NCBI GenBank assembly: GCA_000002445.1 | Contig: CP000067.1 | Span: 1,376,001 to 1,440,000 of the forward strand | Origin: Trypanosoma brucei | Lineage: Eukaryota | Direction of reading: 5' to 3' | Length of the DNA stretch: 64,000 nucleotides | Shown: in pieces, positions 8,175-64,000 of the stretch | Numbering within the stretch: the first letter of the stretch is position 1 | How the letters are laid out: the number at the start of each line of letters is the position of its first letter | The notes under the pieces: generated by a model | What the model saw: only the letters and a program-made list of their open reading frames with translations | Databases searched by the model: none | Told to the model about the DNA's origin: nothing | Made by a program: the position numbers and the translations under genes

Positions 8175-8653
8175 AGGAAACACAGGAGGGCTGTTTATAC
8201 GGGAAAATTAAGGGGTGCTATTGATCAAACTAACGTTCTCTTCCTTCATACGCGATTACAACATATATTTCCCACCAGCTTTTTTAGCGTAAAAGGTACG
8301 TCCGGTTACTGGACTACACGTCACGCAAATAAACAGGGTCCAAGACGGAGGATCGACTCAAAGGAGAAAAATGATGTGTGATTTCATTGAGCGCTCCCTT
8401 GTTGTCTCATGAAAAGAGTAACTCTGGGAAGGGAGTGTACACGTCATTTTTTAAAAAAGGAATAAGTTGCGTTACGCGGAACGCGATTGGGCCATTCACC
8501 TTTCCAGTCAAGCGGACCCTCCTCGCGACCACTTGATGAACAGCAGCCATCCGCCCACCCGAAGGCAAACGGCAGCCCCACTCCAAGAACAGACATGCGT
8601 GTAAACTCCAGCCCACGTGTTCCCGACCTCTTCATGCCCGTCTGTTTTACCAC

Positions 8654-28958: not shown

Positions 28959-29977
28959 AAATTCTTGATTCAGGGATGGGATGAAAAGTGAATGGGAAAA
29001 GAGGGATTTCAACTTCAGAAAGTGAGAAGACGCCAAGGAAAGAAGAGGCCTCAAACCAGAGAGGTTAACAAGCGTCTCTAGGCAATGCCCCAACACACAA
29101 CCGCTGGACACCAGTGAATAAGGCGTTCAAAATAGACTTTAACAAACAGTTTAAACTGAAACTCATACATGCATACATTACATGCCAACTCTTGCAGCAA
29201 CCGAACGAACGGAATGACCTCTTGTATTCGGTGGCAGGCGAGTAACGTAGCATTTGGTAAAAGTTCGCTACAACAAACAAATTCACTGTGTGACTGCCCC
29301 TTCTTGTTTCTTTTCAACGTTGCGCATCGGCCTTCTTGACAAATACGTTGCTCACGGGCACACTCCTTCACATATAAGAGTTGAAGGAGAATATATGAAA
29401 GGGTACTGGACAGGAAATGGACACTGACAGGCATCACTTTTTGTGTAGTTTACCGGTGTAATAATTTCCATAGAGAAACCCACAACCCACGTTGCCCAAG
29501 TCTGTGCGGCGGGAAGAAATGCAGGGGGAAAGGAAGTAATAGCATACCTGCGTAAGCTATGCGTCAACGGTGCTTACTGACGTCGATCCCTTTGGCACGC
29601 GGCGGCGGCAGCTTCAACTTCAGATCCAAAAAATATGTTTGACAAAGGACGGTTTGAGTCACTTCCCTGTTGTTATAACATGTCACAGTTCAATAACCAG
29701 CAAAAGATGTTGACTTTTTTTTTGTTGTCCCCAGTAGCCTCAGCCGATACTTTAACCTTCAAACCCGGAAGATTGGTTCACCCCGCACGCTTCAGCACCC
29801 TCGCTTATTTCATTCCCACACAGCACAACCTCCCGTTCCGCAGCTGAGCAGTGCTGAAACACAAAGAAAACAAAAGGAAATGCACATTGTACTGATTGGT
29901 CGACGAAACGCACCAAAAACAAAAAACGGATCGGCAGGGAGTTAATAACTCTTGGAAGCGCTGTTTTGAAAAAAAAA

Positions 29978-44358: not shown

Positions 44359-44656
44359 AGACTTTCCTTTCCTTTTTTCCTTAACTTTAAACCATACAAA
44401 TAACAATAGAGAAAGAGTTCTTCACAGCGATAATAGCAATACCCATTTGATCCGTCGCATGATCTAGTATTCTAGGGAAAACACAAGTTTCTGCCACCTC
44501 ACAACTTTCATGCCAACTGAGAACAGCAAAATTCACAAATTTCGAACATAGGTAACATCGCAGTCGTCGCTTTCCTCCCGCCGTCTTTTTATCAGCTCTT
44601 GTATCCAGGAGTCGGGCTGTCATACGACACTAAAGTGGCCTTTCCTTGCTTCGCGC

Positions 44657-47666: not shown

Positions 47667-49329
47667 TCGTTGGTTCCTCTCGTCTACTCTTTCCTCTGCA
47701 AAGGTCCCCTTCCCACACTGTTGACAAGGTGCAGAGACGATAACTATCTTAACAGAGGGTTTCAAATATGTAATAGTTACGTTGAAAAAGCAAAAAAAAA
47801 AACAATATCGATTTGAGTGAAATAAAATATTAAAAACAGAAAAAAAAGGAGGCAGAGACTAATACTAAAAAGAAAAAAAATACGCAAGGAAGATTACGAA
47901 TATATACACGCGTGACTTCAAGTTCATACCGCCGGCACGCCCCCTTTCACATTGAGTGTACGATGCTTGAATAAAAAATAATACGATTCAAGAAAAAACA
48001 AAAAAAACTGTTGGCGGCAACCGTGCGGGCATCACATGGCGTCTCCACAACAGCGAGAAGAAACGCTTAGGGTTCACCTCATATATGCGAAGAACGTTTA
48101 CATGCCGCGTTGTTTCCTTCCTGTAAAGCACCTTGAGGTGTGGCAGCATAAAGGAAATAAACAGAGAACAACGGTAATGGATACGTCGCTACATTTAAGC
48201 ACACATTTTTTTTTGTGTGTGTGTGGGGGCCGAGGTGGGTCGTTTGGTCCGTAATATACCAGAGGTGTATGCCTTAGGACACGTCTACAGAGTGATTAAT
48301 TCCCTTTAAACTCCTACCGACTGTTTGCGTACTTTCACCAACGATCACACACATAAAATAATAATCAAAGGAATCCTTCACCGAAGAGAATTCACATTGC
48401 ACTGCATGCGATGCCACGAGCCATCAAAAGGGTTGTATGAAGAAACTAACTCATCATTACTAAACCTCCTACCGGCACCAACTGTCATTGAAGTATATCT
48501 GTTGATTCAGCCACAAGATGTCAATCGTCTCTGACTCTTCCACACACGTGCGCACACATGCTTCAAACTAACGCAACCGCACATGCAGAAAAAGAAAGAT
48601 CATGGAGACTATAGGCGTTTCACAGGTAGTTAATAACAAAGCAAACGCATTAGAAATATAATAGCAATACACAACAGAGGGGAAATATATATATATATAT
48701 ATATATATATTCTTTTTGCTTCTGGTTACTCATAAAGTTCCGCTCTCAAGTTTACATTACTCCGCACTCATCACATAAAACAATCACGTACGTTACCATC
48801 AAATATATATCAACACCATCTCGTGTAACCGAATGGCGCAGCCACAAATATTACCCACAAGTTCGGTAGACATCAACATCGGAAAGCATCATAAATCAGA
48901 TGGTTTCTTCTACATCATACGGGCGCTCTTCCTCCAACGACAAAAACAAAATGAAAAGAACAAGGGAACAAAAAAGTATGGAGCCACTACAGATTGCAGC
49001 AGTGTAAAAATTTTTAAAAAAAGCAGCAAGGGATATCTAAGAGAAACACTTTCTGAATTAAGCCAAGTGTAGGAAACATAATTATACTACCGCTCCAGCA
49101 CAAATGTGTGCAAAAAAAAAATAAATAAGTAATACAACCATCAAGAAAACTCGTATCCGCTCCGTGGCGCACCAAAACGTTAAAAAAATAAAGGAAGTGG
49201 CAAGACAACCGATCGTAAGTACACAGAAAAGCGTACAATTCACTAATGACCCCCCCCAAAAAAAATAAAACAAAAACAGCCCATTACATGGGTTAGTTAA
49301 AAAATAAAAACAAATGTAATCATCACAAA

Positions 49330-50478
49330 TCAATGCTGAAAACAAGGTAGCGTGCCGCTACCGGGATACAACCATCGAACCGCCGACGGTTTATCTCCTC
49401 CTTCCCCAACAGGAAAGATATCGAACAACTCATTGTAATGTTCCTCACTAACATGGTGTATCACAACAGATTTATTTGAAATGTATTTTCTAACGCTACC
49501 AGGACCCGCATTGTGAAACCGGCACGCTTTCGTATCCACACTTATTAGGTTTCTGTACACTACCTTTTCTCTCAGTATCATTCCAACCATCACATCTTCA
49601 TAGAACATGCCAAGATCAAGAAAGTCAAAATAGTCCCACATAGAAAAGGGCATGTTCACTAGACGCTCAAGAGGTTTATACGAAATGATGGCTTGTGCAG
49701 TGTCCCTGGAGAGAGTAATGCAATATCCGTTCACATATGTAAGTTGGTTACGCCGCCATATCCGGTTATAGTAGTTGTAACGACCCATATACAAACCATG
49801 ACGAGGCATTACACGAAGGTCCGCAAGGTATTTTGGAACACGAATAAATATGTCATCATCACCCTTCACAATGTAACTTACGTTAGGAAACATGTGAAGA
49901 GCAAATCGAAGCCACAAATATGTTTTCCGGCTCATCGCAACCTCAGCCTCAATTCCCCAGTTTCCATTCTCACCAATCTTCTTCCGTGTGGATGGAGAGA
50001 CATCATTTGTTGGTAGTGTAATAATGTCATGTGTACGTGCGGCCTCTTCCTTTAGTGAGTGTGAAATCAAATAACTGTTTGACTGATGTGGTGCGAGAAG
50101 ATATAATGGCAGGAGACTCCCACTAAAGTTGTTTGATCGTGTGGCCACGCCACTATACTTCCAGCATGTCTGTCGCTGCAAGTCACGCCGCCTGCTTCTC
50201 TCACTGTTGTCCACAGAAGGAATTCCAAGGACGGCTAGGAATCTTTGTGCCTTCCACACGGCAGCAACATTAGACGGAACGAACATCAAATATTCATCCT
50301 CGTCTATCGGTTGTGAAACTCCAGCCTGATTTTCATCTAAAAAAGTAGATACCACATGAATTCTATGTAAGTTGCAGCAGATAATCAAGAGTGACATCAC
50401 AAGTAGAAGTATCACTGCTATGTCTGCTGTACGTGGCCTCCTCCTCGCTTGTGTTGGTCGCATCTTCAGCGGTGACAT
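49330..50478 (-). CDS. UDP-Gal/UDP-GlcNAc-dependent glycosyltransferase (GT67/beta3GT-like), array copy 1, with a divergent C-terminus.
   Basis: This copy matches the array consensus from the ATG (MSPLKMRPTQARRRPRTADIAVILLLVMSLLIICC) through the DxD motif YIVKGDDDIFIRV and the EDVMVGMIL motif. The last ~70 aa differ (…ISVDTKACRFHNAGPGSVRKYISNKSVVIHHVSEEHYNELFDIFPVGEGGDKPSAVRWLYPGSGTLPCFQH). DNA identity to the other units breaks at about 49545. Confidence 0.8.
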   Translation of the reverse strand: MSPLKMRPTQARRRPRTADIAVILLLVMSLLIICCNLHRIHVVSTFLDENQAGVSQPIDEDEYLMFVPSNVAAVWKAQRFLAVLGIPSVDNSERSRRRDLQRQTCWKYSGVATRSNNFSGSLLPLYLLAPHQSNSYLISHSLKEEAARTHDIITLPTNDVSPSTRKKIGENGNWGIEAEVAMSRKTYLWLRFALHMFPNVSYIVKGDDDIFIRVPKYLADLRVMPRHGLYMGRYNYYNRIWRRNQLTYVNGYCITLSRDTAQAIISYKPLERLVNMPFSMWDYFDFLDLGMFYEDVMVGMILREKVVYRNLISVDTKACRFHNAGPGSVRKYISNKSVVIHHVSEEHYNELFDIFPVGEGGDKPSAVRWLYPGSGTLPCFQH

Positions 50479-51034
50479 GTCTACAAAGAAGTTATCGAGG
50501 GAAAAACAATTTAAATTGGCAAATGCGAGAATTCGCGCAGTCGTTAGCAACACAATTAGCTGACAAATTCATGTTCATCACAATTCAATGTAGACCGCTA
50601 TGAAAGAACTCATAAAGGTCGTATGAGGCATGAGGATATACGTCCACGAGGGAGACATTTGAAATCATGAATATCTCAACAGTTATTAAACTTTACAACT
50701 TAAGTAGGACATCCACTCCCAAACTAGGCAATATTTTAAAAGTTACATTTGGGGGAAAGGGACCGTTAATCACGGTTTCGAACGATACCCAAAAACTGTT
50801 CATAACCAAACCTCCCAGTTTTGACCGAAACGAAACGGCGTAACTGTCATGTGATCAACAAATGAGTTCCAAGGAAAAATAATCAACGAACGGTATAGTA
50901 TGCCGTCGGTTATTACACACAGACACACACACACAGAAAGTAACTAAAGTGTTTCAGGAATAGGAGTGACGCTAATACAATCCTAACAAACTATAGGGTG
51001 AGGGATCTCATAGTTCCCAAGCAACCTCAATAAT

Positions 51035-52237
51035 TCAGGCCCTCTTACGCCAAAAGGGAAAAGAAGGTAGGATTTCTCTTTTCCGTCCAAGTCGGAATTC
51101 ACACTGCATCGCCGCCCAATTGCTATTCAACCACATTAGCTTTGAGGGTGCCGGTGGTATTACACCTTCAGGAAAGTAGTCCATTAACATTTCGTAATCG
51201 GCTTCCTGTATGTGGTGTATCACAACAGACATGTTCCTAACGCTCTTCTTCACACCAAACTTGCCCGCATTGTGAAAGTGACAACGACCCATCTCCACAC
51301 TTATTAGGTTTCTGTACACTACCTTTTCTCTCAGTATCATTCCAACCATCACATCTTCATAGAACATGCCAAGATCAAGAAAGTCAAAATAGTCCCACAT
51401 AGAAAAGGGCATGTTCACTAGACGCTCAAGAGGTTTATACGAGATGATGGCTTGTGCAGTGTCCCTGGAGAGAGTAATGCAATATCCGTTCACATATGTA
51501 AGTTGGTTACGCCGCCATATCCGGTTATAGTAGTTGTAACGACCCATATACAAACCATGACGAGGCATTACACGAAGGTCCGCAAGGTATTTTGGAACAC
51601 GAATAAATATGTCATCATCACCCTTCACAATGTAACTTACGTTAGGAAACATGTGAAGAGCAAACCGAAGCCACAAATATGTTTTCCGACTCATCGCAAC
51701 CTCAGCCTCAATTCCCCAGTTTCCATTCTCACCAATCTTCTTCCGTGTGGATGGAGAGACATCATTTGTTGGTAGTGTAATAATGTCATGTGTACGTGCG
51801 GCCTCTTCCTTTAGTGAGTGTGAAATCAAATAACTGTTTGACTGATGTGGTGCGAGAAGATATAATGGCAGGAGACTCCCACTAAAGTTGTTTGATCGTG
51901 TGGCCACGCCACTATACTTCCAGCATGTCTGTCGCTGCAAGTCACGCCGCCTGCTTCTCTCACTGTTGTCCACAGAAGGAATTCCAAGGACGGCTAGGAA
52001 TCTTTGTGCCTTCCACACGGCAGCAACATTAGACGGAACGAACATCAAATATTCATCTTCGTCTATCGGTTGTGAAACTCCAGCCTGATTTTCATCTAAA
52101 AAAGTAGATACCACATGAATTCTATGTAAGTTGCAGCAGATAATCAAGAGTGACATCACAAGTAGAAGTATCACTGCTATGTCTGCTGTACGTGGCCTCC
52201 TCCTCGCTTGTGTTGGTCGCATCTTCAGCGGTGACAT
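51035..52237 (-). CDS. UDP-Gal/UDP-GlcNAc-dependent glycosyltransferase (GT67/beta3GT-like), array copy 2.
   Basis: About 400 aa from the first ATG; the track start at 52310-52312 is GTG. It has type II topology, with a short basic cytoplasmic tail and a single transmembrane segment. The DxD motif is GDDD, and the beta3GT ED(V)xxG motif is YEDVMVGMIL. This is one unit of the 1759-bp tandem repeat. Confidence 0.85.
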   Translation of the reverse strand: MSPLKMRPTQARRRPRTADIAVILLLVMSLLIICCNLHRIHVVSTFLDENQAGVSQPIDEDEYLMFVPSNVAAVWKAQRFLAVLGIPSVDNSERSRRRDLQRQTCWKYSGVATRSNNFSGSLLPLYLLAPHQSNSYLISHSLKEEAARTHDIITLPTNDVSPSTRKKIGENGNWGIEAEVAMSRKTYLWLRFALHMFPNVSYIVKGDDDIFIRVPKYLADLRVMPRHGLYMGRYNYYNRIWRRNQLTYVNGYCITLSRDTAQAIISYKPLERLVNMPFSMWDYFDFLDLGMFYEDVMVGMILREKVVYRNLISVEMGRCHFHNAGKFGVKKSVRNMSVVIHHIQEADYEMLMDYFPEGVIPPAPSKLMWLNSNWAAMQCEFRLGRKREILPSFPFWRKRA

Positions 52238-52793
52238 GTCTACAAAGAAGTTATCGAGGGAAAAACAATTTAAATTGGCAAATGCGAGAATTCGCGCAGT
52301 TGTTAGAAACACAATTAGCTGACAAATTCATGTTCATCACAATTCAATGTAGACCGCTATGAAAGAACTCATAAAGGTCGTATGAGGCATGAGGATATAC
52401 GTCCACGAGGGAGACATTTGAAATCATGAATATCTCAACAGTTATTAAACTTTACAACTTAAGTAGGACATCCACTCCCAAACTAGGCAATATTTTAAAA
52501 GTTACATTTGGGGGAAAGGGACCGTTAATCACGGTTTCGAACGATACCCAAAAACTGTTCATAACCAAACCTCCCAGTTTTGACCGAAACGAAACGGCGT
52601 AACTGTCATGTGATCAACAAATGAGTTCCAAGGAAAAATAATCAACGAACGGTATAGTATGCCGTCGGTTATTACACACAGACACACACACACAGAAAGT
52701 AACTAAAGTGTTTCAGGAATAGGAGTGACGCTAATACAATCCTAACAAACTATAGGGTGAGGGATCTCATAGTTCCCAAGCAACCTCAATAAT

Positions 52794-53996
52794 TCAGGCC
52801 CTCTTACGCCAAAAGGGAAAAGAAGGTAGGATTTCTCTTTTCCGTCCAAGTCGGAATTCACACTGCATCGCCGCCCAATTGCTATTCAACCACATTAGCT
52901 TTGAGGGTGCCGGTGGTATTACACCTTCAGGAAAGTAGTCCATTAACATTTCGTAATCGGCTTCCTGTATGTGGTGTATCACAACAGACATGTTCCTAAC
53001 GCTCTTCTTCACACCAAACTTGCCCGCATTGTGAAAGTGACAACGACCCATCTCCACACTTATTAGGTTTCTGTACACTACCTTTTCTCTCAGTATCATT
53101 CCAACCATCACATCTTCATAGAACATGCCAAGATCAAGAAAGTCAAAATAGTCCCACATAGAAAAGGGCATGTTCACTAGACGCTCAAGAGGTTTATACG
53201 AAATGATGGCTTGTGCAGTGTCCCTGGAGAGAGTAATGCAATATCCGTTCACATATGTAAGTTGGTTACGCCGCCATATCCGGTTATAGTAGTTGTAACG
53301 ACCCATATACAAACCATGACGAGGCATTACACGAAGGTCCGCAAGGTATTTTGGAACACGAATAAATATGTCATCATCACCCTTCACAATGTAACTTACG
53401 TTAGGAAACATGTGAAGAGCAAACCGAAGCCACAAATATGTTTTCCGACTCATCGCAACCTCAGCCTCAATTCCCCAGTTTCCATTCTCACCAATCTTCT
53501 TCCGTGTGGATGGAGAGACATCATTTGTTGGTAGTGTAATAATGTCATGTGTACGTGCGGCCTCTTCCTTTAGTGAGTGTGAAATCAAATAACTGTTTGA
53601 CTGATGTGGTGCGAGAAGACATAATGGCAGGAGACTCCCACTAAAGTTGTTTGATCGTGTGGCCACGCCACTATACTTCCAGCATGTCTGTCGCTGCAAG
53701 TCACGCCGCCTGCTTCTCTCACTGTTGTCCACAGAAGGAATTCCAAGGACGGCTAGGAACCTTTGTGCCTTCCACACGGCAGCAACATTAGACGGAACGA
53801 ACATCAAATATTCACCTTCGTCTATCGGTTGTGAAACTCCAGCCTGATTTTCATCTAAAAAAGTAGATACCTCATGAATTCTATGTAAGTTGCAGCAGAT
53901 AATCAAGAGTGACATCACAAGTAGAAGTATCACTGCTATGTCTGCTGTACGTGGCCTCCTCCTCGCTTGTGTTGGTCGCATCTTCAGCGGTGACAT
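52794..53996 (-). CDS. UDP-Gal/UDP-GlcNAc-dependent glycosyltransferase, array copy 3.
   Basis: Same as copy 2, with HRIHEVSTF / EGEY / LPLCLL / YSPSS substitutions. Confidence 0.85.
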   Translation of the reverse strand: MSPLKMRPTQARRRPRTADIAVILLLVMSLLIICCNLHRIHEVSTFLDENQAGVSQPIDEGEYLMFVPSNVAAVWKAQRFLAVLGIPSVDNSERSRRRDLQRQTCWKYSGVATRSNNFSGSLLPLCLLAPHQSNSYLISHSLKEEAARTHDIITLPTNDVSPSTRKKIGENGNWGIEAEVAMSRKTYLWLRFALHMFPNVSYIVKGDDDIFIRVPKYLADLRVMPRHGLYMGRYNYYNRIWRRNQLTYVNGYCITLSRDTAQAIISYKPLERLVNMPFSMWDYFDFLDLGMFYEDVMVGMILREKVVYRNLISVEMGRCHFHNAGKFGVKKSVRNMSVVIHHIQEADYEMLMDYFPEGVIPPAPSKLMWLNSNWAAMQCEFRLGRKREILPSFPFWRKRA

Positions 53997-54552
53997 GTCT
54001 ACAAAGAAGTTATCGAGGGAAAAACAATTTAAATTGGCAAATGCGAGAATTCGCGCAGTTGTTAGAAACACAATTAGCTGACAAATTCATGTTCATCACA
54101 ATTCAATGTAGACCGCTATGAAAGAACTCATAAAGGTCGTATGAGGCATGAGGATATACGTCCACGAGGGAGACATTTGAAATCATGAATATCTCAACAG
54201 TTATTAAACTTTACAACTTAAGTAGGACATCCACTCCCAAACTAGGCAATATTTTAAAAGTTACATTTGGGGGAAAGGGACCGTTAATCACGGTTTCGAA
54301 CGATACCCAAAAACTGTTCATAACCAAACCTCCCAGTTTTGACCGAAACGAAACGGCGTAACTGTCATGTGATCAACAAATGAGTTCCAAGGAAAAATAA
54401 TCAACGAACGGTATAGTATGCCGTCGGTTATTACACACAGACACACACACACAGAAAGTAACTAAAGTGTTTCAGGAATAGGAGTGACGCTAATACAATC
54501 CTAACAAACTATAGGGTGAGGGATCTCATAGTTCCCAAGCAACCTCAATAAT

Positions 54553-55755
54553 TCAGGCCCTCTTACGCCAAAAGGGAAAAGAAGGTAGGATTTCTCTTTT
54601 CCGTCCAAGTCGGAATTCACACTGCATCGCTGCCCAATTGCTATTCAACCACATTAGCTTTGAGGGTGCCGGTGGTATTACACCTTCAGGAAAGTAGTCC
54701 ATTAACATTTCGTAATCGGCTTCCTGTATGTGGTGTATCACAACAGACATGTTCCTAACGCTCTTCTTCACACCAAACTTGCCCGCATTGTGAAAGTGAC
54801 AACGACCCATCTCCACACTTATTAGGTTTCTGTACACTACCTTTTCTCTCAGTATCATTCCAACCATCACATCTTCATAGAACATGCCAAGATCAAGAAA
54901 GTCAAAATAGTCCCACATAGAAAAGGGCATGTTCACTAGACGCTCAAGAGGTTTATACGAAATGATGGCTTGTGCAGTGTCCCTGGAGAGAGTAATGCAA
55001 TATCCGTTCACATATGTAAGTTGGTTACGCCGCCATATCCGGTTATAGTAGTTGTAACGACCCATATACAAACCATGACGAGGCATTACACGAAGGTCCG
55101 CAAGGTATTTTGGAACACGAATAAATATGTCATCATCACCCTTCACAATGTAACTTACGTTAGGAAACATGTGAAGAGCAAACCGAAGCCACAAATATGT
55201 TTTCCGACTCATCGCAACCTCAGCCTCAATTCCCCAGTTTCCATTCTCACCAATCTTCTTCCGTGTGGATGGAGAGACATCATTTGTTGGTAGTGTAATA
55301 ATGTCATGTGTACGTGCGGCCTCTTCCTTTAGTGAGTGTGAAATCAAATAACTGTTTGACTGATGTGGTGCGAGAAGACATAATGGCAGGAGACTCCCAC
55401 TAAAGTTGTTTGATCGTGTGGCCACGCCACTATACTTCCAGCATGTCTGTCGCTGCAAGTCACGCCGCCTGCTTCTCTCACTGTTGTCCACAGAAGGAAT
55501 TCCAAGGACGGCTAGGAACCTTTGTGCCTTCCACACGGCAGCAACATTAGACGGAACGAACATCAAATATTCACCTTCGTCTATCGGTTGTGAAACTCCA
55601 GCCTGATTTTCATCTAAAAAAGTAGATACCTCATGAATTCTATGTAAGTTGCAGCAGATAATCAAGAGTGACATCACAAGTAGAAGTATCACTGCTATGT
55701 CTGCTGTACGTGGCCTCCTCCTCGCTTGTGTTGGTCGCATCTTCAGCGGTGACAT
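54553..55755 (-). CDS. UDP-Gal/UDP-GlcNAc-dependent glycosyltransferase, array copy 4.
   Basis: Same variant type as copy 3, plus NCFSV in the 5' leader and a Thr in the antisense overlap. The unit is full length. Confidence 0.85.
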   Translation of the reverse strand: MSPLKMRPTQARRRPRTADIAVILLLVMSLLIICCNLHRIHEVSTFLDENQAGVSQPIDEGEYLMFVPSNVAAVWKAQRFLAVLGIPSVDNSERSRRRDLQRQTCWKYSGVATRSNNFSGSLLPLCLLAPHQSNSYLISHSLKEEAARTHDIITLPTNDVSPSTRKKIGENGNWGIEAEVAMSRKTYLWLRFALHMFPNVSYIVKGDDDIFIRVPKYLADLRVMPRHGLYMGRYNYYNRIWRRNQLTYVNGYCITLSRDTAQAIISYKPLERLVNMPFSMWDYFDFLDLGMFYEDVMVGMILREKVVYRNLISVEMGRCHFHNAGKFGVKKSVRNMSVVIHHIQEADYEMLMDYFPEGVIPPAPSKLMWLNSNWAAMQCEFRLGRKREILPSFPFWRKRA

Positions 55756-56311
55756 GTCTACAAAGAAGTTATCGACGGAAAAACAATTTAAATTGGCAAA
55801 TGCGAGAATTCGCGCAGTTGTTAGAAACACAATTAGCTGACAAATTCATGTTCATCACAATTCAATGTAGACCGCTATGAAAGAACTCATAAAGGTCGTA
55901 TGAGGCATGAGGATATACGTCCACGAGGGAGACATTTGAAATCATGAATATCTCAACAGTTATTAAACTTTACAACTTAAGTAGGACATCCACTCCCAAA
56001 CTAGGCAATATTTTAAAAGTTACATTTGGGGGAAAGGGACCGTTAATCACGGTTTCGAACGATACCCAAAAACTGTTCATAACCAAACCTCCCAGTTTTG
56101 ACCGAAACGAAACGGCGTAACTGTCATGTGATCAACAAATGAGTTCCAAGGAAAAATAATCAACGAACGGTATAGTATGCCGTCGGTTATTACACACAGA
56201 CACACACAAACAGAAAGTAACTAAAGTGTTTCAGGAATAGGAGTGACGCTAATACAATCCTAACAAACTATAGGGTGAGGGATCTCATAGTTCCCAAGCA
56301 ACCTCAATAAT

Positions 56312-57514
56312 TCAGGCCCTCTTACGCCAAAAGGGAAAAGAAGGTAGGATTTCTCTTTTCCGTCCAAGTCGGAATTCACACTGCATCGCTGCCCAATTGC
56401 TATTCAACCACATTAGCTTTGAGGGTGCCGGTGGTATTACACCTTCAGGAAAGTAGTCCATTAACATTTCGTAATCGGCTTCCTGTATGTGGTGTATCAC
56501 AACAGACATGTTCCTAACGCTCTTCTTCACACCAAACTTGCCCGCATTGTGAAAGTGACAACGACCCATCTCCACACTTATTAGGTTTCTGTACACTACC
56601 TTTTCTCTCAGTATCATTCCAACCATCACATCTTCATAGAACATGCCAAGATCAAGAAAGTCAAAATAGTCCCACATAGAAAAGGGCATGTTCACTAGAC
56701 GCTCAAGAGGTTTATACGAAATGATGGCTTGTGCAGTGTCCCTGGAGAGAGTAATGCAATATCCGTTCACATATGTAAGTTGGTTACGCCGCCATATCCG
56801 GTTATAGTAGTTGTAACGACCCATATACAAACCATGACGAGGCATTACACGAAGGTCCGCAAGGTATTTTGGAACACGAATAAATATGTCATCATCACCC
56901 TTCACAATGTAACTTACGTTAGGAAACATGTAAAGAGCAAACCGAAGCCACAAATATGTTTTCCGACTCATCGCAACCTCAGCCTCAATTCCCCAGTTTC
57001 CATTCTCACCAATCTTCTTCCGTGTGGATGGAGAGACATCATTTGTTGGTAGTGTAATAATGTCATGTGTACGTGCGGCCTCTTCCTTTAGTGAATGTGA
57101 AATCAAATAACTGTTTGACTGATGTGGTGCGAGAAGATATAATGGCAGGAGACTCCCACTAAAGTTGTTTGATCGTGTGGCCACGCCACTATACTTCCAG
57201 CATGTCTGTCGCTGCAAGTCACGCCGCCTGCTTCTCTCACTGTTGTCCACAGAAGGAATTCCAAGGACGGCTAGGAATCTTTGTGCCTTCCACACGGCAG
57301 CAACATTAGACGGAACGAACATCAAATATTCATCTTCGTCTATCGGTTGTGAAACTCCAGCCTGATTTTCATCTAAAAAAGTAGATACCACATGAATTCT
57401 ATGTAAGTTGCAGCAGATAATCAAGAGTGACATCACAAGTAGAAGTATCACTGCTATGTCTGCTGTACGTGGCCTCCTCCTCGCTTGTGTTGGTCGCATC
57501 TTCAGCGGTGACAT
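56312..57514 (-). CDS. UDP-Gal/UDP-GlcNAc-dependent glycosyltransferase, array copy 5.
   Basis: Same variant type as copy 2, with a single H-to-Y change (FALYMFPN). Confidence 0.85.
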   Translation of the reverse strand: MSPLKMRPTQARRRPRTADIAVILLLVMSLLIICCNLHRIHVVSTFLDENQAGVSQPIDEDEYLMFVPSNVAAVWKAQRFLAVLGIPSVDNSERSRRRDLQRQTCWKYSGVATRSNNFSGSLLPLYLLAPHQSNSYLISHSLKEEAARTHDIITLPTNDVSPSTRKKIGENGNWGIEAEVAMSRKTYLWLRFALYMFPNVSYIVKGDDDIFIRVPKYLADLRVMPRHGLYMGRYNYYNRIWRRNQLTYVNGYCITLSRDTAQAIISYKPLERLVNMPFSMWDYFDFLDLGMFYEDVMVGMILREKVVYRNLISVEMGRCHFHNAGKFGVKKSVRNMSVVIHHIQEADYEMLMDYFPEGVIPPAPSKLMWLNSNWAAMQCEFRLGRKREILPSFPFWRKRA

Positions 57515-58070
57515 GTCTACAAAGAAGTTATCGAGGGAAAAACAATTTAAATTGGCAAATGCGAGAATTCGCGCAGTTGTTAGAAACACAATTAGCTGAC
57601 AAATTCATGTTCATCACAATTCAATGTAGACCGCTATGAAAGAACTCATAAAGGTCGTATGAGGCATGAGGATATACGTCCACGAGGGAGACATTTGAAA
57701 TCATGAATATCTCAACAGTTATTAAACTTTACAACTTAAGTAGGACATCCACTCCCAAACTAGGCAATATTTTAAAAGTTACATTTGGGGGAAAGGGACC
57801 GTTAATCACGGTTTCGAACGATACCCAAAAACTGTTCATAACCAAACCTCCCAGTTTTGACCGAAACGAAACGGCGTAACTGTCATGTGATCAACAAATG
57901 AGTTCCAAGGAAAAATAATCAACGAACGGTATAGTATGCCGTCGGTTATTACACACAGACACACACAAACAGAAAGTAACTAAAGTGTTTCAGGAATAGG
58001 AGTGACGCTAATACAATCCTAACAAACTATAGGGTGAGGGATCTCATAGTTCCCAAGCAACCTCAATAAT

Positions 58071-59273
58071 TCAGGCCCTCTTACGCCAAAAGGGAAAAGA
58101 AGGTAGGATTTCTCTTTTCCGTCCAAGTCGGAATTCACACTGCATCGCTGCCCAATTGCTATTCAACCACATTAGCTTTGAGGGTGCCGGTGGTATTACA
58201 CCTTCAGGAAAGTAGTCCATTAACATTTCGTAATCGGCTTCCTGTATGTGGTGTATCACAACAGACATGTTCCTAACGCTCTTCTTCACACCAAACTTGC
58301 CCGCATTGTGAAAGTGACAACGACCCATCTCCACACTTATTAGGTTTCTGTACACTACCTTTTCTCTCAGTATCATTCCAACCATCACATCTTCATAGAA
58401 CATGCCAAGATCAAGAAAGTCAAAATAGTCCCACATAGAAAAGGGCATGTTCACTAGACGCTCAAGAGGTTTATACGAAATGATGGCTTGTGCAGTGTCC
58501 CTGGAGAGAGTAATGCAATATCCGTTCACATATGTAAGTTGGTTACGCCGCCATATCCGGTTATAGTAGTTGTAACGACCCATATACAAACCATGACGAG
58601 GCATTACACGAAGGTCCGCAAGGTATTTTGGAACACGAATAAATATGTCATCATCACCCTTCACAATGTAACTTACGTTAGGAAACATGTGAAGAGCAAA
58701 CCGAAGCCACAAATATGTTTTCCGACTCATCGCAACCTCAGCCTCAATTCCCCAGTTTCCATTCTCACCAATCTTCTTCCGTGTGGATGGAGAGACATCA
58801 TTTGTTGGTAGTGTAATAATGTCATGTGTACGTGCGGCCTCTTCCTTTAGTGAGTGTGAAATCAAATAACTGTTTGACTGATGTGGTGCGAGAAGATATA
58901 ATGGCAGGAGACTCCCACTAAAGTTGTTTGATCGTGTGGCCACGCCACTATACTTCCAGCATGTCTGTCGCTGCAAGTCACGCCGCCTGCTTCTCTCACT
59001 GTTGTCCACAGAAGGAATTCCAAGGACGGCTAGGAACCTTTGTGCCTTCCACACGGCAGCAACATTAGACGGAACGAACATCAAATATTCATCTTCGTCT
59101 ATCGGTTGTGAAACTCCAGCCTGATTTTCATCTAAAAAAGTAGATACCACATGAATTCTATGTAAGTTGCAGCAGATAATCAAGAGTGACATCACAAGTA
59201 GAAGTATCACTGCTATGTCTGCTGTACGTGGCCTCCTCCTCGCTTGTGTTGGTCGCATCTTCAGCGGTGACAT
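58071..59273 (-). CDS. UDP-Gal/UDP-GlcNAc-dependent glycosyltransferase, array copy 6.
   Basis: Identical to copy 2 at the protein level. Confidence 0.85.
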   Translation of the reverse strand: MSPLKMRPTQARRRPRTADIAVILLLVMSLLIICCNLHRIHVVSTFLDENQAGVSQPIDEDEYLMFVPSNVAAVWKAQRFLAVLGIPSVDNSERSRRRDLQRQTCWKYSGVATRSNNFSGSLLPLYLLAPHQSNSYLISHSLKEEAARTHDIITLPTNDVSPSTRKKIGENGNWGIEAEVAMSRKTYLWLRFALHMFPNVSYIVKGDDDIFIRVPKYLADLRVMPRHGLYMGRYNYYNRIWRRNQLTYVNGYCITLSRDTAQAIISYKPLERLVNMPFSMWDYFDFLDLGMFYEDVMVGMILREKVVYRNLISVEMGRCHFHNAGKFGVKKSVRNMSVVIHHIQEADYEMLMDYFPEGVIPPAPSKLMWLNSNWAAMQCEFRLGRKREILPSFPFWRKRA

Positions 59274-59829
59274 GTCTACAAAGAAGTTATCGAGGGAAAA
59301 ACAATTTAAATTGGCAAATGCGAGAATTCGCGCAGTTGTTAGAAACACAATTAGCTGACAAATTCATGTTCATCACAATTCAATGTAGACCGCTATGAAA
59401 GAACTCATAAAGGTCGTATGAGGCATGAGGATATACGTCCACGAGGGAGACATTTGAAATCATGAATATCTCAACAGTTATTAAACTTTACAACTTAAGT
59501 AGGACATCCACTCCCAAACTAGGCAATATTTTAAAAGTTACATTTGGGGGAAAGGGACCGTTAATCACGGTTTCGAACGATACCCAAAAACTGTTCATAA
59601 CCAAACCTCCCAGTTTTGACCGAAACGAAACGGCGTAACTGTCATGTGATCAACAAATGAGTTCCAAGGAAAAATAATCAACGAACGGTATAGTATGCCG
59701 TCGGTTATTACACACAGACACACACAAACAGAAAGTAACTAAAGTGTTTCAGGAATAGGAGTGACGCTAATACAATCCTAACAAACTATAGGGTGAGGGA
59801 TCTCATAGTTCCCAAGCAACCTCAATAAT

Positions 59830-60843
59830 TCAGGCCCTCTTACGCCAAAAGGGAAAAGAAGGTAGGATTTCTCTTTTCCGTCCAAGTCGGAATTCACACT
59901 GCATCGCTGCCCAATTGCTATTCAACCACATTAGCTTTGAGGGTGCCGGTGGTATTACACCTTCAGGAAAGTAGTCCATTAACATTTCGTAATCGGCTTC
60001 CTGTATGTGGTGTATCACAACAGACATGTTCCTAACGCTCTTCTTCACACCAAACTTGCCCGCATTGTGAAAGTGACAACGACCCATCTCCACACTTATT
60101 AGGTTTCTGTACACTACCTTTTCTCTCAGTATCATTCCAACCATCACATCTTCATAGAACATGCCAAGATCAAGAAAGTCAAAATAGTCCCACATAGAAA
60201 AGGGCATGTTCACTAGACGCTCAAGAGGTTTATACGAAATGATGGCTTGTGCAGTGTCCCTGGAGAGAGTAATGCAATATCCGTTCACATATGTAAGTTG
60301 GTTACGCCGCCATATCCGGTTATAGTAGTTGTAACGACCCATATACAAACCATGACGAGGCATTACACGAAGGTCCGCAAGGTATTTTGGAACACGAATA
60401 AATATGTCATCATCACCCTTCACAATGTAACTTACGTTAGGAAACATGTGAAGAGCAAACCGAAGCCACAAATATGTTTTCCGACTCATCGCAACCTCAG
60501 CCTCAATTCCCCAGTTTCCATTCTCACCAATCTTCTTCCGTGTGGATGGAGAGACATCATTTGTTGGTAGTGTAATAATGTCATGTGTACGTGCGGCCTC
60601 TTCCTTTAGTGAGTGTGAAATCAAATAACTGTTTGACTGATGTGGTGCGAGAAGATATAATGGCAGGAGACTCCCACTAAAGTTGTTTGATCGTGTGGCC
60701 ACGCCACTATACTTCCAGCATGTCTGTCGCTGCAAGTCACGCCGCCTGCTTCTCTCACTGTTGTCCACAGAAGGAATTCCAAGGACGGCTAGGAATCTTT
60801 GTGCCTTCCACACGGCAGCAACATTAGACGGAACGAACATCAA
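59830..60843 (-). pseudogene. 5'-truncated glycosyltransferase copy at the array boundary. It lacks the cytoplasmic tail, the transmembrane signal anchor and the first ~88 aa.
   Basis: Homology to the repeat unit stops abruptly at about 60853, inside the coding sequence (consensus ...catcaaatattcatcttcgtctatcgg versus here ...catcaaatattcatccttttattaaaaaatg). The remaining frame, MFVPSNVAAVW..., is intact for 336 aa but has no N-terminal anchor. Confidence 0.6.
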
Positions 60844-62049
60844 ATATTCATCCTTTTATTAAAAAATGTGTTTGTCCTTTGAGTTTCATGTAAAAAAAAA
60901 AAGAAAGACGATGACACCGTTTTTCGTAGTTGATTGTAGTGCTCCGCCATTTTCTGCAGTCTTTATTTTTGCGAAAGGGCCTTGACGGTGCCGCCTTGTT
61001 ACGTAACGCTTTTATAAAGTTCGATGTGTAAGTTTCGTTTGTGCCTACTGTTGTTTTTAGTTAAAAAAAAAAGTTATGAGAGTTGAGTGGTAACTGGTAC
61101 GACCCCTTTATTATTAGCAGGTAAAGAAAAGGCATGTTTTTTTCTTCTATTTTTTTTGTTAAACAAACCCGAACATGGTGTTAATTATGACAAATTTTCA
61201 CATATGCGGTGTGGTCGCACGATCGATCCCACAACTACCAGGCCGTGAAGGAGAAGGAGACGTTAACATCGTAAGAATATGTGTTGTTGCATTATTTATT
61301 TTTCAAAGAAATAATGGCGATTCCCCCCATAGTTACAGTTGGCTTTTGTGATTCACCCCTCACATTCACTTTTATGTACCCGATGTGCCATAAAGGTGGG
61401 ACGAATATTCATTAATTTGAAAAGTTTGTGCATGGCATATTCGACATCAAACCCTTCTTTTTTTTAAAAAAAAAACAACATCTTCCGATATGTTAATGTT
61501 AATGCTAATTTTCATTTTCATATTTTATTTTTTAAGTTGAGATGCGTTCGACGTGAATTGTTCCTCCCTCCTGCGCTAACTTTGGAGAATGTTTTGAGTA
61601 CTTTTGGAGTGTTCAGCACTTCACTGACATTCGCGGAGCATATATATATATATATTTTTTTTTTTTTATAAGAAAAAAAAAGCGCCAACTGTGGACCCCG
61701 CACTGTTTTTGCACTTCGTTCATCCGCTTTTCCATTTAAAATTCACTAATTAGAAATTTCACATAAGTCACCGGCTCTCCTTCACACGATGTAAATTTCG
61801 GTATGGCGTGGCGTGGCGTGCAGGCGTAATATTTTTTTTCCTCATTCAGTAATACATACATGAGTGCACACAAGCAAACGTATATTTTATTTTATTTTAT
61901 ATGCGAACTGTAACTCGAGACTATCTCAAGCACGAGAATATGAGGAACCTCGGTGCCTTCGCTTCCTTTTTTTTTTTATTCCCCAATAATTCTTTTGCTA
62001 TATCATGTTGTGTCACTTCCTCCTTATCTTTTTACATATGGTCGCATGG

Positions 62050-63700
62050 TGACAAAAAGTTTTGTAGGGAACGAATTTTTTTTTTTTTAAACAGAAGAAA
62101 AGAAAAGGAAAAAAGAAAAAGAAAAGAATGGGAAGTGACACAAGCGTCAGTTTGTACATAAAAGTTCCACGGAGGTGCGGGGGCGATATGTTAACATCAG
62201 TTCATACATTTCATAAGTGTTTTTTTTTTAGCATCGGTCCATTCATTCAATCCAGTATCAGAAAGCGAGGTAAAGATAAAGATGAAGATGAAGAAAGAAA
62301 AAAAAAGAAAAAAAAAAGAAAAAAGAATAGGGGAAGGTGGGAAGAAAAGCGGCAGCAAACTGGCGAATGGCGCGTCACTTCATTCAAGCGGATAAAATTC
62401 TCTTTTCTTATTTTGTTTTGTGTTTTTTGTTTTTGTTTTTAAAACTGTTATTAATACTTTTTCTTTACTTTACTCTTCTTTTTTACTTTATTTTATTTTG
62501 GTTCTGCTCCCCACAATATTCACCACAGTGAAGAGAAGAACACACACAAACACAAAAGAAAAAAGAAAAGAAAAGGAGACAAGAGGAGGCATTTATTTTC
62601 CTCTTTCCCTTCAGTTACGTACCGGAGGTGCAAACAAGGCGAAAAAGAAATGAAAAAAAGTATCACAATTGGCATGAAGGAACAACAACAACAAAAAAAA
62701 TTTTTAAAAAAAAGAAGAAGAAAAGGCGAATGAAAGTTTTTTTTTAAAAAAAAAGAAGAAAAAAAAGAAAAAAAAAGAGGAGGGGACAATCCACTGGGGA
62801 ATAAACAACAAAACTTACGATAGGAGAGTAAAAATAAAAAAATGAAAAAAAAGCAGAGGGTGGACATGGACAAGAGAGCGATGAATAAATTTTTTTTTAA
62901 AGAAAAAACGTGTAGAGACAATAATAATAATAATAACAATAATAGTGATTAATAACAGTATGGGGCGGGAAGAGAACCGACGGCCAAAAAGAAAAAAAAA
63001 CAAAAAACAAAAACACATGGAAACAAAAAGAAAAAAAAAGGAAAAAAGAAAAGCGAACAATCGTTTGCATAAGTTGACGTTGCATTTCATTATGCGTTCA
63101 CTACTTTTATCGTTTGCAACACTTACGCACGTCCCTGTTTCTTTTAGTCTCTTTTTTTTTAAAAAAAAAAAGAAAGAAGCGTTGCTGAGAAATATTTAAT
63201 TTACACTTCAGTAAGCAAGCGAACAAACAAAAGAAAAAAAATAACAGTAAAAGTACCATTAAATGATATCAATAATAATAATAACAATAACAATCTGATA
63301 TGATATGATATGATAACATACCAATGATAATAGCAATGATAATAAATATAAACAAAAAAATTTAAAAAGAAATTCATTGTCACCCCACTTATTTTCTTTC
63401 TATATCGTTCAATTTCTTATCACTTTCTTTTTTTTTGTTTCGTTTCTGTTGCCGCTTTCTTTTGTTTTCTTTTTTTTTTTGTTATTTCAGATCCTCCGAC
63501 GCAACTGCCAGTCTGGCGCTACATTTTCTTCAATTCCTCATCCTTTTTTGGTGTCAGACCTCGCTACTTTTTAACTTCGCCTCGCAAACTCCCACTAGCT
63601 ATTCATCTTTATTTATTTTTATTTTATTTATTTTATTTTCTTTTCGCCTCAAACGTCTCTTCGGGTTTCCACTCCTTCCTCTTCTATAAATAAATATAAA
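62050..63700. promoter_or_regulatory. Candidate strand-switch or transcription-start region. A poly-purine block (62050-63100) sits next to a poly-pyrimidine block (63370-63660) on the + strand.
   Basis: 60.9–64 kb contains no ORF of 100 aa or more. From 62050 to 63100 the + strand is A/G-rich, which puts a poly-pyrimidine tract on the minus strand upstream of the first minus-strand gene. From 63370 to 63660 the + strand becomes T/C-rich, as expected upstream of a + strand gene lying beyond the window. This rests on composition alone. Confidence 0.3.
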
Positions 63701-64000
63701 TATAAATAAAAATATATAAATATATAAATATATAAATTCTCTTCAGTGGAATAACCAAGCAGCAGATATTGAAGTTAATACATACCCTGACGGCCCCCAT
63801 ATACCCGCACACATATAAATATAAATAAATAAATAAATAATATAAATATAATGATGGAACAAGTGAAGTAAAGAAACAAACAAACAAACAAGAAAAGAAA
63901 CGACAGCTAAACGCACAATAAAAATCGCAACAAAAAAAAAAAGAAGAAAAGAGACGTCCATTTGCTTCACCACTTCGTTTCCCCTCCTTTCTTTTCTTTT

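What the first reader, a model, noticed from the sequence alone, without database searches (positions are those of the whole stretch)
49330..60853. Seven-member head-to-tail array of near-identical glycosyltransferase genes, with two interleaved allele types
Six full 1759-bp units, plus a divergent copy at the 3' end and a truncated copy at the 5' end, encode a type II membrane glycosyltransferase. Its DxD motif is GDDD and its beta3GT motif is EDVMVG, as in the trypanosome GT67 family that elaborates N-glycans and GPI side chains. The copies fall into two variant classes. Class A (starts 51035, 56312, 58071) has HVVSTF…DEDEY…LPLYLL…YSSSS. Class B (starts 52794, 54553) has HEVSTF…DEGEY…LPLCLL…YSPSS. 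The order along the array is A-B-B-A-A. Silent and spacer differences follow the same classes. This pattern fits ongoing unequal crossing-over or gene conversion, and short-read assemblies would be likely to collapse such a locus. Most described family members are dispersed single genes, so amplifying one glycosyltransferase to this dosage is unusual.
Basis: partly seen in the sequence, partly recalled or inferred. Interest (0 to 1): 0.6.

Follow-up and report, generated by a model that had tools for sequence, protein, structure and literature searches.

The report
Known trypanosome glycosyltransferase tandem gene array
This is the already annotated and published seven-gene tandem array of GT67 glycosyltransferase genes (Tb927.4.5240 to Tb927.4.5300) on chromosome 4 of the Trypanosoma brucei reference genome, and it is a typical trypanosome gene-dosage array rather than a new feature.

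Summary
The array is real. Seven head-to-tail genes lie on the minus strand with an exact 1759-bp period, homogenised from 60852 to 49535. There are five full-length 400-aa genes. The downstream terminal gene (382 aa) has an old, divergent C-terminal tail and an unrelated 3' flank. The upstream gene (336 aa) lacks the membrane anchor.

The proteins are 100% identical to T. brucei TREU927 chromosome 4 entries XP_844672-78. Veitch 2010 already described "7 tandemly repeated copies" with a differently regulated last gene. Duncan & Ferguson 2022 describe what is most likely this array as the "TbGT2 sub-family (seven closely related genes)" of GT67 lineage 7.

The family assignment holds: Pfam Galactosyl_T, GT31-like predicted fold, invariant DDD and ED motifs, and homology to proteins annotated as phosphoglycan β1,3-galactosyltransferases.

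Several details are wrong.
- "Class B" is two adjacent units that differ from each other at one base. It is defined by three missense changes.
- "YSSSS/YSPSS" is the antisense reading of one of those changes.
- Silent and spacer variants do not follow the classes.
- Tandem arrays of this lineage also occur on chromosome 8 and in T. congolense.

Copy number in other strains could not be tested. Verdict: already known, low interest.

The parts
49330..50478 (-). U7, the terminal (most downstream) gene, 382 aa; equals Tb927.4.5240 / XP_844672. Codons 1-314 are identical at the protein level to the internal copies. Codons 315-382 are an old, divergent tail.
   Evidence: ORF and translation. Exact match to AAZ11113/XP_844672. 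Junction alignment. Tail 42% versus core 100% amino-acid identity.
49330..49534 (-). Divergent C-terminal tail of U7. Roughly half of the bases match the internal units at lag 1759, and the reading frame is kept.
47766..49329 (-). Unique downstream flank of U7, about 1.56 kb and U-rich, presumed to hold its 3'UTR. It is unrelated to the internal spacers.
   Evidence: No similarity after the stop codon. Veitch 2010 (PMC2837033) reports a different 3'UTR and procyclic up-regulation for this gene only.
51035..52237 (-). U6, full-length 400-aa gene, class A. Private variants at unit positions 795, 1690 and 1696.
   Evidence: Its sequence is P0001, held under AAZ11114/AAZ11118.
52794..53996 (-). 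U5, full-length 400-aa gene, class B (V42E, D61G, Y126C).
   Evidence: The class B sequence is P0026, held under AAZ11115/AAZ11116.
54553..55755 (-). U4, full-length 400-aa gene, class B. It differs from U5 at one base (unit position 1125).
56312..57514 (-). U3, full-length 400-aa gene, class A with private H195Y. Its sequence is P0025 (AAZ11117).
58071..59273 (-). U2, full-length 400-aa gene, class A.
59830..60840 (-). U1, the upstream edge copy, 336 aa from Met65; equals XP_844678. It lacks the cytoplasmic tail, the membrane anchor and the start of the stem, so it is probably non-functional as a Golgi enzyme.
   Evidence: ORF. Homology starts at 60852, and one search lists the ORF from TTG 60843, so no longer in-frame start exists. 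Its sequence is P0028 (AAZ11119). The membrane segment is residues 17-37.
52238..52793 (-). Example of the 556-bp intergenic spacer. It recurs at 50479-51034, 53997-54552, 55756-56311, 57515-58070 and 59274-59829. It must carry the polyadenylation and trans-splicing signals of each unit (inferred).
   Evidence: Only 4 variable sites were found in the spacers.
49535..60852 (-). The homogenised block: 11,318 bp, 6.43 units of 1759 bp, with at most 0.5% difference between units.
60853..64000 (-). AT-rich, low-complexity, non-coding flank upstream of the array (31-40% GC). It is not part of the repeat.

Best explanation
Shown: the window is Trypanosoma brucei brucei TREU927 chromosome 4. [quoted passage not shown] The literature names these Tb927.4.5240 (downstream end) to Tb927.4.5300 (upstream end). 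Each full gene encodes a 400-aa protein with three parts: a short basic N-terminus, one membrane helix (residues 17-37), and a GT-A catalytic domain most similar in predicted fold to GT31 β3-glycosyltransferases. The D207-D208-D209 and E294-D295 motifs are invariant.

Inferred from the literature: this is the 'TbGT2 sub-family' of GT67 lineage 7. It is a Golgi-lumen enzyme that adds Gal or GlcNAc to GPI side chains and/or N-glycans. Duncan & Ferguson postulate a procyclic-stage β1-4 galactosyltransferase, but no activity has been measured.

Inferred mechanism of the array: trypanosome genes are transcribed polycistronically, with no control at each gene's promoter. Output is therefore set by gene copy number and by 3'UTR-dependent mRNA fate. 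Five identical units, each with its own 556-bp spacer, multiply the dose of one isoform. The last gene keeps a different C-terminal 68 residues and an unrelated 3' flank, and it is regulated differently (procyclic up-regulation, Veitch 2010).

The array is kept uniform by unequal sister-chromatid exchange and gene conversion, which stop sharply at codon 314/315. An internal unit has the structure expected from a crossover between the truncated upstream copy (tail A plus spacer) and the terminal copy (full N-terminus). 'Class B' is a recently duplicated adjacent pair that carries three derived missense changes. One of them (Y126C) falls on a residue invariant in 22 homologues, so these two copies may be impaired.
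For: Identity:
- The proteins are 100% identical to TREU927 proteins on a contig of 1,590,432 bp.
- Neighbouring genes (Nup54-domain protein, protein kinase, a pair of dihydrolipoamide dehydrogenase-like ORFs) fit the chromosome 4 duplicon of Jackson 2007.

Anatomy.

Family:
- Pfam PF01762 scores 28.2 bits against a cut-off of 23.
- A profile search of PDB sequences aligns KGDDD with the KGDDD of human B3GNT2, E = 0.002.
- The AlphaFold model has mean pLDDT 77. The top 30 Foldseek hits in the PDB are all B3GNT2, B3GalT5 or B3GalT6, with E down to 2e-12.
- The profile finds proteins annotated as 'phosphoglycan beta-1,3-galactosyltransferase' at E = 1e-45 to 1e-50.
- A membrane helix is supported by hydropathy of 2.68 over residues 17-35 and by a model helix at 17-49.

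Concerted evolution:
- Five site pairs fail the four-gamete test.
- Silent differences at codons 70 and 154 are fixed between strains but shared by all copies within a strain.
- Residues 1-314 are 100% identical between the terminal and internal isoforms, while the tail is only 42% identical. That is as diverged as the comparison with the chromosome 8 paralogue (51%) or with T. congolense (38-42%).

Literature:
- PMC2837033 reports seven tandem copies and a different 3'UTR and regulation for the last gene.
- PMC5853035 reports that Tb927.4.5240-5290 are preferentially expressed in procyclics by proteomics.
- PMC9472816 describes the TbGT2 sub-family as seven closely related genes.
- A 2026 bioRxiv preprint lists Tb927.4.5240 among the labelled proteins of an ER/Golgi-lumen TurboID data set.
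Against: - No enzymatic activity or localisation has been shown for these genes specifically.
- mRNA and protein data disagree on stage. Veitch 2010 found the internal copies about threefold up in bloodstream forms (not significant), whereas proteomics shows a procyclic preference.
- The equation TbGT2 = Tb927.4.5240-5300 is my inference, based on 'seven closely related genes, lineage 7, procyclic-high'. I did not see a table of gene IDs.
- The T. b. gambiense DAL972 and T. equiperdum IVM-t1 assemblies show only the truncated and terminal genes. If that is real, the five-copy amplification is strain-specific and dosage is dispensable.
- Selection for dosage is assumed from general trypanosome biology. 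It was not tested here.
Confidence: 0.88

Rival explanations
1. The copy number, and the A/B 'classes', are partly an assembly product. One route is that the two homologous chromosomes of the diploid TREU927 clone were threaded into one array. Another is that the number of near-identical units was mis-estimated, so the true array is shorter or longer.
For: - The units are at least 99.5% identical over 1759 bp, which is longer than a Sanger read.
- Two other assemblies of the same species hold only 1.43 units.
- The A/B differences number only three and could be allelic.
Against: - Each of the five full units has its own SNP signature, which is what a resolved assembly would show.
- The two short assemblies are themselves suspect. 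IVM-t1 had about 64 Mb of PacBio reads for a 27-Mb genome (7,508 reads averaging 8,523 bp), and its chromosomes were built on the TREU927 reference.
- I also recall that DAL972 is a reference-guided shotgun assembly. That rests on my own knowledge and was not checked here.
Confidence: 0.15
2. The array is a neutral by-product of recombination in a repeat-prone, sub-telomere-proximal region. It is not selected for dosage, and some members are decaying.
For: - The upstream copy lacks its membrane anchor.
- Class B carries Y126C at a residue invariant in 22 homologues, and D61G at a position where most of the aligned salivarian homologues have Asp.
- Four of the eight coding differences among the full copies are missense.
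- PMC5853035 suggests that lineage 7 expanded into possibly redundant isoforms.
Against: - Three full copies (U2, U6 and the N-terminal 314 codons of U7) are identical in protein sequence, and the spacers are conserved.
- The products are detected by proteomics.
- Tandem arrays at the syntenic locus persist in T. congolense and on chromosome 8.
Confidence: 0.2
3. Classes A and B are functionally distinct isoforms kept by selection.
For: All three class-specific changes are missense.
Against: - The two B units are adjacent and differ by one base, which points to a single recent duplication.
- B alleles are absent from the gambiense, equiperdum and Logan copies wherever those positions are covered.
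- Y126 is invariant in the family.
- No silent or spacer variant is class-specific.
Confidence: 0.05

Closest known systems
Tb927.4.5240-Tb927.4.5300 array (inferred to be the 'TbGT2 sub-family') of T. brucei TREU927 chromosome 4
   Same: It is this locus. All seven proteins are identical to XP_844672-XP_844678. Seven tandem copies with a distinct last 3'UTR were described by Veitch 2010.
   Different: Nothing differs.
TbGT3 (Tb927.2.3370), the characterised GT67 lineage 7 UDP-Gal:βGlcNAc-GPI β1-3 galactosyltransferase
   Same: Same GT67 lineage according to PMC5853035 and PMC9472816. Both are procyclic-associated.
   Different: TbGT3 lies elsewhere, on chromosome 2, and the review treats it as one lineage 7 member. 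Its activity has been measured, whereas the array's activity has not. I did not retrieve or align its sequence here.
Human GT31 enzymes B3GNT2, B3GalT5 and B3GalT6
   Same: GT-A fold, a DDD metal and nucleotide-sugar motif at the aligned position, and type II topology.
   Different: Only 15-18% identity. The Pfam match covers just 38 residues. CAZy places the kinetoplastid proteins in a separate family, GT67. Linkage specificity cannot be transferred, because characterised GT67 members make β1-2, β1-3 and β1-6 linkages.
Trypanosome tandem arrays with a differently regulated edge copy (phosphoglycerate kinase PGKA/B/C, hexose transporters THT1/THT2)
   Same: Head-to-tail copies in one polycistron, homogenised by gene conversion, with isoforms that differ in 3'UTR and stage regulation (PMC1855330, PMC2837033).
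   Different: In those arrays, functional differences between the isoforms are documented. Here they are only inferred.
Leishmania SCG/SCGR phosphoglycan β1,3-galactosyltransferase arrays
   Same: Proteins annotated with that name are homologous at E = 1e-45 to 1e-50. The SCGR genes also form a tandem array.
   Different: The matched proteins with that name are much longer (913-1466 aa). The expansion is independent and the acceptor (lipophosphoglycan) is different.

Membership tests
Identity with T. brucei TREU927 genes Tb927.4.5240-5300 | Exact protein sequence match to the deposited gene products | tested here: met
   All distinct products were found as AAZ11113-AAZ11119 / XP_844672-XP_844678 on a 1,590,432-bp contig. 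Mapping the accessions to Tb927 gene IDs rests on the literature.
β3GT superfamily / GT31-like GT-A fold | Match to Pfam Galactosyl_T (PF01762) above the gathering score | tested here: met
   28.2 bits against a cut-off of 23, but only residues 183-220 are matched.
β3GT superfamily / GT31-like GT-A fold | DxD motif at the position of the GT31 metal and UDP-sugar site | tested here: met
   KGDDD aligns with KGDDD of B3GNT2. D207, D208 and D209 are invariant in 22 homologues.
β3GT superfamily / GT31-like GT-A fold | Overall fold similarity to solved GT31 structures | tested here: met
   The model has mean pLDDT 77. The top 30 Foldseek PDB hits are all B3GNT2, B3GalT5 or B3GalT6, with E from 2e-12 to 2e-9 and target-normalised TM-score 0.53-0.66.
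β3GT superfamily / GT31-like GT-A fold | The ED(V) motif supplies the catalytic base | tested here: inconclusive
   E294 and D295 are invariant. Residue-level equivalence to the GT31 catalytic Asp was not checked.
CAZy GT67 (kinetoplastid UDP-Gal/UDP-GlcNAc transferases) | Sequence homology to the family's characterised members (Leishmania SCG phosphoglycan β1,3-GalT; TbGT3, 8, 10, 11, 15) | tested here: met
   The profile hits proteins annotated as phosphoglycan β-1,3-galactosyltransferase at E = 1e-45 to 1e-50. Those names are annotations, not assays. PMC5853035 places Tb927.4.5240-5290 in lineage 7 together with TbGT3. Direct alignment to TbGT3 or TbGT8 was not done.
CAZy GT67 | Inverting transfer of Gal or GlcNAc from a UDP-sugar | not testable with these tools
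   This needs an enzyme assay. None is reported for these genes.
Type II Golgi membrane protein | Short basic N-terminus, a single N-terminal membrane helix and a lumenal catalytic domain | tested here: met
   RRRPR precedes a hydrophobic stretch at residues 17-37 (Kyte-Doolittle 2.68), and there is no other hydrophobic segment. The model has a helix at 17-49. Golgi residence itself was not tested; Tb927.4.5240 appears among the labelled proteins of an ER/Golgi-lumen TurboID data set.
Tandem gene array under concerted evolution (sense of Jackson 2007) | Head-to-tail copies whose spacers are as conserved as the coding sequence | tested here: met
   Exact 1759-bp period. Four variable sites in the 556-bp spacers, against eight among the five full 1203-bp coding sequences (eleven if U7's private variants are counted).
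Tandem gene array under concerted evolution (sense of Jackson 2007) | Copies within a genome more alike than orthologous copies between genomes; mosaic variant patterns | tested here: met
   Silent differences at codons 70 and 154 are shared by both gambiense copies and by none of the seven TREU927 copies. Five site pairs fail the four-gamete test. Caveat: the gambiense copies may be a collapsed consensus.

The most novel reading that the evidence does not exclude
The array, and independently its chromosome 8 paralogue, may maintain two anciently diverged 3' modules (the C-terminal ~68 residues of the catalytic domain plus the 3'UTR) behind a sharp gene-conversion boundary at codon 314/315, while everything upstream is homogenised. 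If selection holds that boundary, the locus encodes two enzymes with a shared donor-binding half but different acceptor-side subdomains and different stage regulation. The amplified one would be a chimera created by crossover between a dead edge copy and the terminal gene.
Probability: 0.25. Interest if true: 0.35.

Novelty: already known. Interest (0 to 1): 0.1.

Why it matters
The finding adds little. The genes, their number, their family and the odd last copy are all in the reference annotation and in papers from 2007 to 2022.

The locus does matter to trypanosome glycobiology. The TbGT2 genes are candidates for the still unidentified β1-4 galactosyltransferase of procyclin GPI side chains (PMC9472816), and a seven-copy array is awkward to knock out.

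The fine map made here could help design reagents that are specific to one unit or one isoform, or a whole-array deletion. It gives the exact homogenised block, the unit-specific SNPs, a probably impaired B pair, an anchor-less edge copy and an old divergent tail on the last gene.

Tried and rejected
- Tandem Repeats Finder did not report the array because its longest period is 500. The period came from the repeat finder and a lag-identity scan.
- Exact-sequence look-ups of the 400-aa products (P0001, P0026) found no contig on record. TREU927 DNA could therefore not be fetched independently, and no further strains could be compared.
- The word-indexed homologue search, even with a profile, reached only Trypanosoma proteins and one weak unnamed ENA protein (P0047, E 2.5e-28). 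Only the exhaustive HMMER search reached the Leishmaniinae-type enzymes.
- Supplement look-ups for a TbGT2 gene-ID table found nothing held.
- Rfam and tRNA scans of the window were empty.
- My first attempt to read the TREU927 variable sites in the gambiense and equiperdum upstream copy used a 1759-bp offset. The period there is about 1757 bp, so I discarded that read-out and used only the codon-by-codon gene comparisons.
- Logan contig L003 joins a GT unit to 1.9 kb of unrelated DNA. It could be a dispersed copy or a chimeric contig, and I did not pursue it.
- I considered and rejected a strand-switch or centromere reading of the AT-rich upstream flank. The upstream genes in the related loci are on the same strand, and no long repeat is present.


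Full report
**1. The observation**

All ORFs of 150 aa or more between 46971 and 60843 lie on the minus strand. Seven of them are paralogues spaced exactly 1759 bp apart. A scan of identity at lag 1759 gives 100% per 50-bp window from about 49550 to about 60850 and about 25% elsewhere, so chance is not an issue. Tandem Repeats Finder missed the array only because its period limit is 500.

I number the units in gene orientation, which runs from high to low window coordinates.
- U1 (59830-60840) is truncated.
- U2-U6 are full 1203-nt coding sequences with ATGs at 59273, 57514, 55755, 53996 and 52237. Each is followed by a 556-bp spacer.
- U7 (49330-50478) is the last gene.

Base-by-base alignment puts the upstream edge of homology at 60852, about codon 60. 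One search lists that ORF from TTG 60843, so no longer in-frame start exists, and the first in-frame Met is Met65 of the full protein. The downstream edge of perfect homology is 49535, at codon 314/315. After it, roughly half of the bases match as far as the stop codon, and beyond the stop there is no similarity at all. The homogenised block is therefore 11,318 bp, or 6.43 units. The count is five full genes plus one chimeric and one truncated gene, not 'six full units' plus two.

**2. Variation between units**

Only 15 sites vary among the seven units, and the largest pairwise difference is 9 of 1759.

Class B (U4 and U5, the ORFs starting at 54553 and 52794) is defined by three changes, all missense: V42E, D61G and Y126C. 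U4 and U5 are adjacent and differ from each other at one base.

It sits on the D61G SNP, so it is the antisense reading of the same change.

The silent and spacer variants do not follow the classes. Position 237 is shared by U2, U4 and U5. Position 1125 is shared by U5 and U6. Position 1306 is shared by U4, U5 and U6. Five site pairs show all four allele combinations, which requires exchange between units or recurrent mutation.

Y126 is invariant in an alignment of 22 homologues from five Trypanosoma species, and most of the aligned salivarian homologues have Asp at the position of D61. The B alleles are not seen in the gambiense, equiperdum or Logan copies wherever those positions are covered. 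The simplest reading is one recent single-unit duplication of a copy that carries derived, possibly damaging changes. It is not two interleaved allele types.

**3. What it is**

The 400-aa product is 100% identical to a T. brucei brucei TREU927 protein on a contig of 1,590,432 bp. [quoted passage not shown]

The neighbouring genes fit the chromosome 4 duplicon described by Jackson 2007. These include a Nup54-domain protein, a protein kinase, a repeat-rich 1429-aa protein and a pair of dihydrolipoamide dehydrogenase-like ORFs of which one is truncated. Jackson 2007 pairs Tb927.4.5240/5300 with Tb927.8.7140 (PMC2212663).

The published record on this array is as follows.
- Veitch et al. [quoted passage not shown]
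- Pereira et al. 2018 (PMC5853035) place Tb927.4.5240-5290 in UGT lineage 7 with TbGT3 and report preferential procyclic expression by proteomics.
[quoted passage not shown] Equating TbGT2 with this array is my inference, because I could not see the gene-ID table.
- Jackson 2007 (PMC1855330) lists a UDP-GlcNAc-dependent glycosyltransferase array among the T. brucei tandem arrays tested for concerted evolution.

**4. Family tests**

- Pfam Galactosyl_T (the GT31 family model) scores 28.2 bits against a cut-off of 23, over 38 residues around the DxD motif.
- A profile of 22 homologues hits human B3GNT2, B3GalT6 and B3GalT5 in the PDB at E = 0.002-0.03, with KGDDD aligned to KGDDD.
- An AlphaFold model (mean pLDDT 77, pTM 0.76) finds the same three GT31 enzymes as its top 30 Foldseek hits, with E from 2e-12 to 2e-9.
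- D207-D209 and E294-D295 are invariant.
- Residues 17-37 are the only hydrophobic segment and follow RRRPR, which is type II topology.
- An exhaustive HMMER search finds 345 cluster representatives at E ≤ 0.001. Three of them carry the name phosphoglycan β-1,3-galactosyltransferase, at E = 1e-45 to 1e-50. That is the founding GT67 activity.

GT31/GT67 homology is therefore confirmed. The donor sugar, the acceptor and the linkage remain unknown. They cannot be inferred from family membership, because characterised GT67 enzymes make β1-2, β1-3 and β1-6 linkages.

**5. How the array is built and kept**

The terminal and internal isoforms are 100% identical over residues 1-314 but only 42% identical over residues 315-379. 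The internal tail is 51% identical to the chromosome 8 paralogue and 38-42% identical to T. congolense homologues. The two tails are therefore old, and the rest of the gene has been homogenised up to a sharp boundary.

The same mosaic is seen in two other places.
- In the chromosome 8 array of T. b. gambiense (three tandem genes), the core is 98% identical between copies, the tail 49% and the N-terminus 15%.
- The T. congolense locus has at least four tandem genes and is syntenic through to the Nup54 gene.

An internal unit equals the N-terminus and core of the terminal gene joined to the tail and spacer of the truncated gene. That is exactly the product of an unequal crossover between U1 and U7, so the array can grow from, or shrink to, a two-gene state.

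This two-gene state, with a period of about 1757 bp, is what the T. b. gambiense DAL972 and T. equiperdum IVM-t1 assemblies show. I cannot tell whether it is real or a collapse. IVM-t1 had about 64 Mb of PacBio reads for a 27-Mb genome, and its chromosomes were built on the TREU927 reference.

Silent changes at codons 70 and 154 are shared by both gambiense copies and by none of the seven TREU927 copies. That is the signature of concerted evolution, with the same caveat about collapse.

**6. How it most likely works**

*Shown:* a polycistronic, same-strand arrangement; identical coding units with conserved spacers; and a last gene with a different tail and a different 3' flank.

*Inferred from established trypanosome biology:* transcription initiation is not gene-specific, so copy number and 3'UTR-dependent mRNA fate set the output. 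The five identical units raise the dose of the 400-aa isoform, while the 382-aa isoform is regulated separately. The anchor-less U1 is probably inert.

The C-terminal part that differs between the isoforms is well folded in the model (block-mean pLDDT 77-89 over residues 311-380). It belongs to the half of GT-A enzymes that usually forms the acceptor site, so the isoforms may differ in acceptor. That is speculation.

**7. Rivals**

- An assembly or haplotype-merging artefact cannot be excluded without long reads. Each full unit does, however, have its own SNP signature.
- Neutral expansion with decaying members is compatible with U1 and with class B.
- Selected A/B diversification is unlikely, for the reasons given in section 2.

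**8. Verdict**

Tandem amplification is the norm for this GT67 lineage and for trypanosome genes in general. Novelty: already known. Interest: low.

Noticed in passing
window 6357-10072 (minus strand): A tandem pair of dihydrolipoamide dehydrogenase-like ORFs. The 608-aa copy matches Pyr_redox_2 from profile position 1. In the 472-aa copy the match starts at profile position 58, so it is N-terminally truncated. This fits Jackson 2007's remark that one chromosome 4 copy is being lost.
   Followed up: partly
window 24822-29111 (minus strand): A 1429-aa ORF with two blocks of 27-bp (9-aa) tandem repeats, at 25459-26072 (about 23 copies) and 26193-27656 (about 55 copies), and a C-terminal DUF7759. 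It causes the extreme GC and AT skew at 26-28 kb. It is probably the 'kinetoplast-associated protein' Tb927.4.5120 of the duplicon paper.
   Followed up: partly
window 42433-44406 (minus strand); repeat 43411-44266: A Nup54-domain nucleoporin with about 24 copies of a 36-bp repeat. The called gene lengths in the gambiense and equiperdum loci (725 and 718 aa, against 657 aa here) suggest that the repeat number varies between strains.
   Followed up: no
window 60853-64000: About 3 kb of AT-rich (31-40% GC), low-complexity, ORF-poor DNA lies upstream of the array. In the related loci it extends about 5 kb to a protein kinase gene on the same strand. No Rfam or tRNA hit was found.
   Followed up: partly
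L002 8436-11149 and L001 about 8421-11149: The T. b. gambiense DAL972 and T. equiperdum IVM-t1 assemblies carry only the truncated gene plus the terminal gene, with a period of about 1757 bp. The five full internal units are missing. Whether this is a real contraction or an assembly collapse is undecided.
   Followed up: partly
L004 8317-12759 (T. b. gambiense chr 8) and L005 742-7930 (T. congolense): Paralogous and orthologous loci also hold tandem GT67 genes (three copies, and at least four). Their central tracts are homogenised (about 88-99.8% identical), while the N-termini and tails are divergent. This is the same partial concerted evolution seen in the window. In both loci an inositol-phosphatase-family gene follows the array, and that gene is absent from chromosome 4.
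   Followed up: partly
L003 1-3543 (Logan contig, run ERR7929157): A short-read contig joins a GT unit (unit positions 8-1647, internal-type tail with the gambiense-like 'IPPSFPFWRKRT' ending) to 1.9 kb of DNA that is not in the window. That DNA carries a 534-aa ORF on the other strand. It is either a dispersed copy elsewhere in that genome or a chimeric contig.
   Followed up: no
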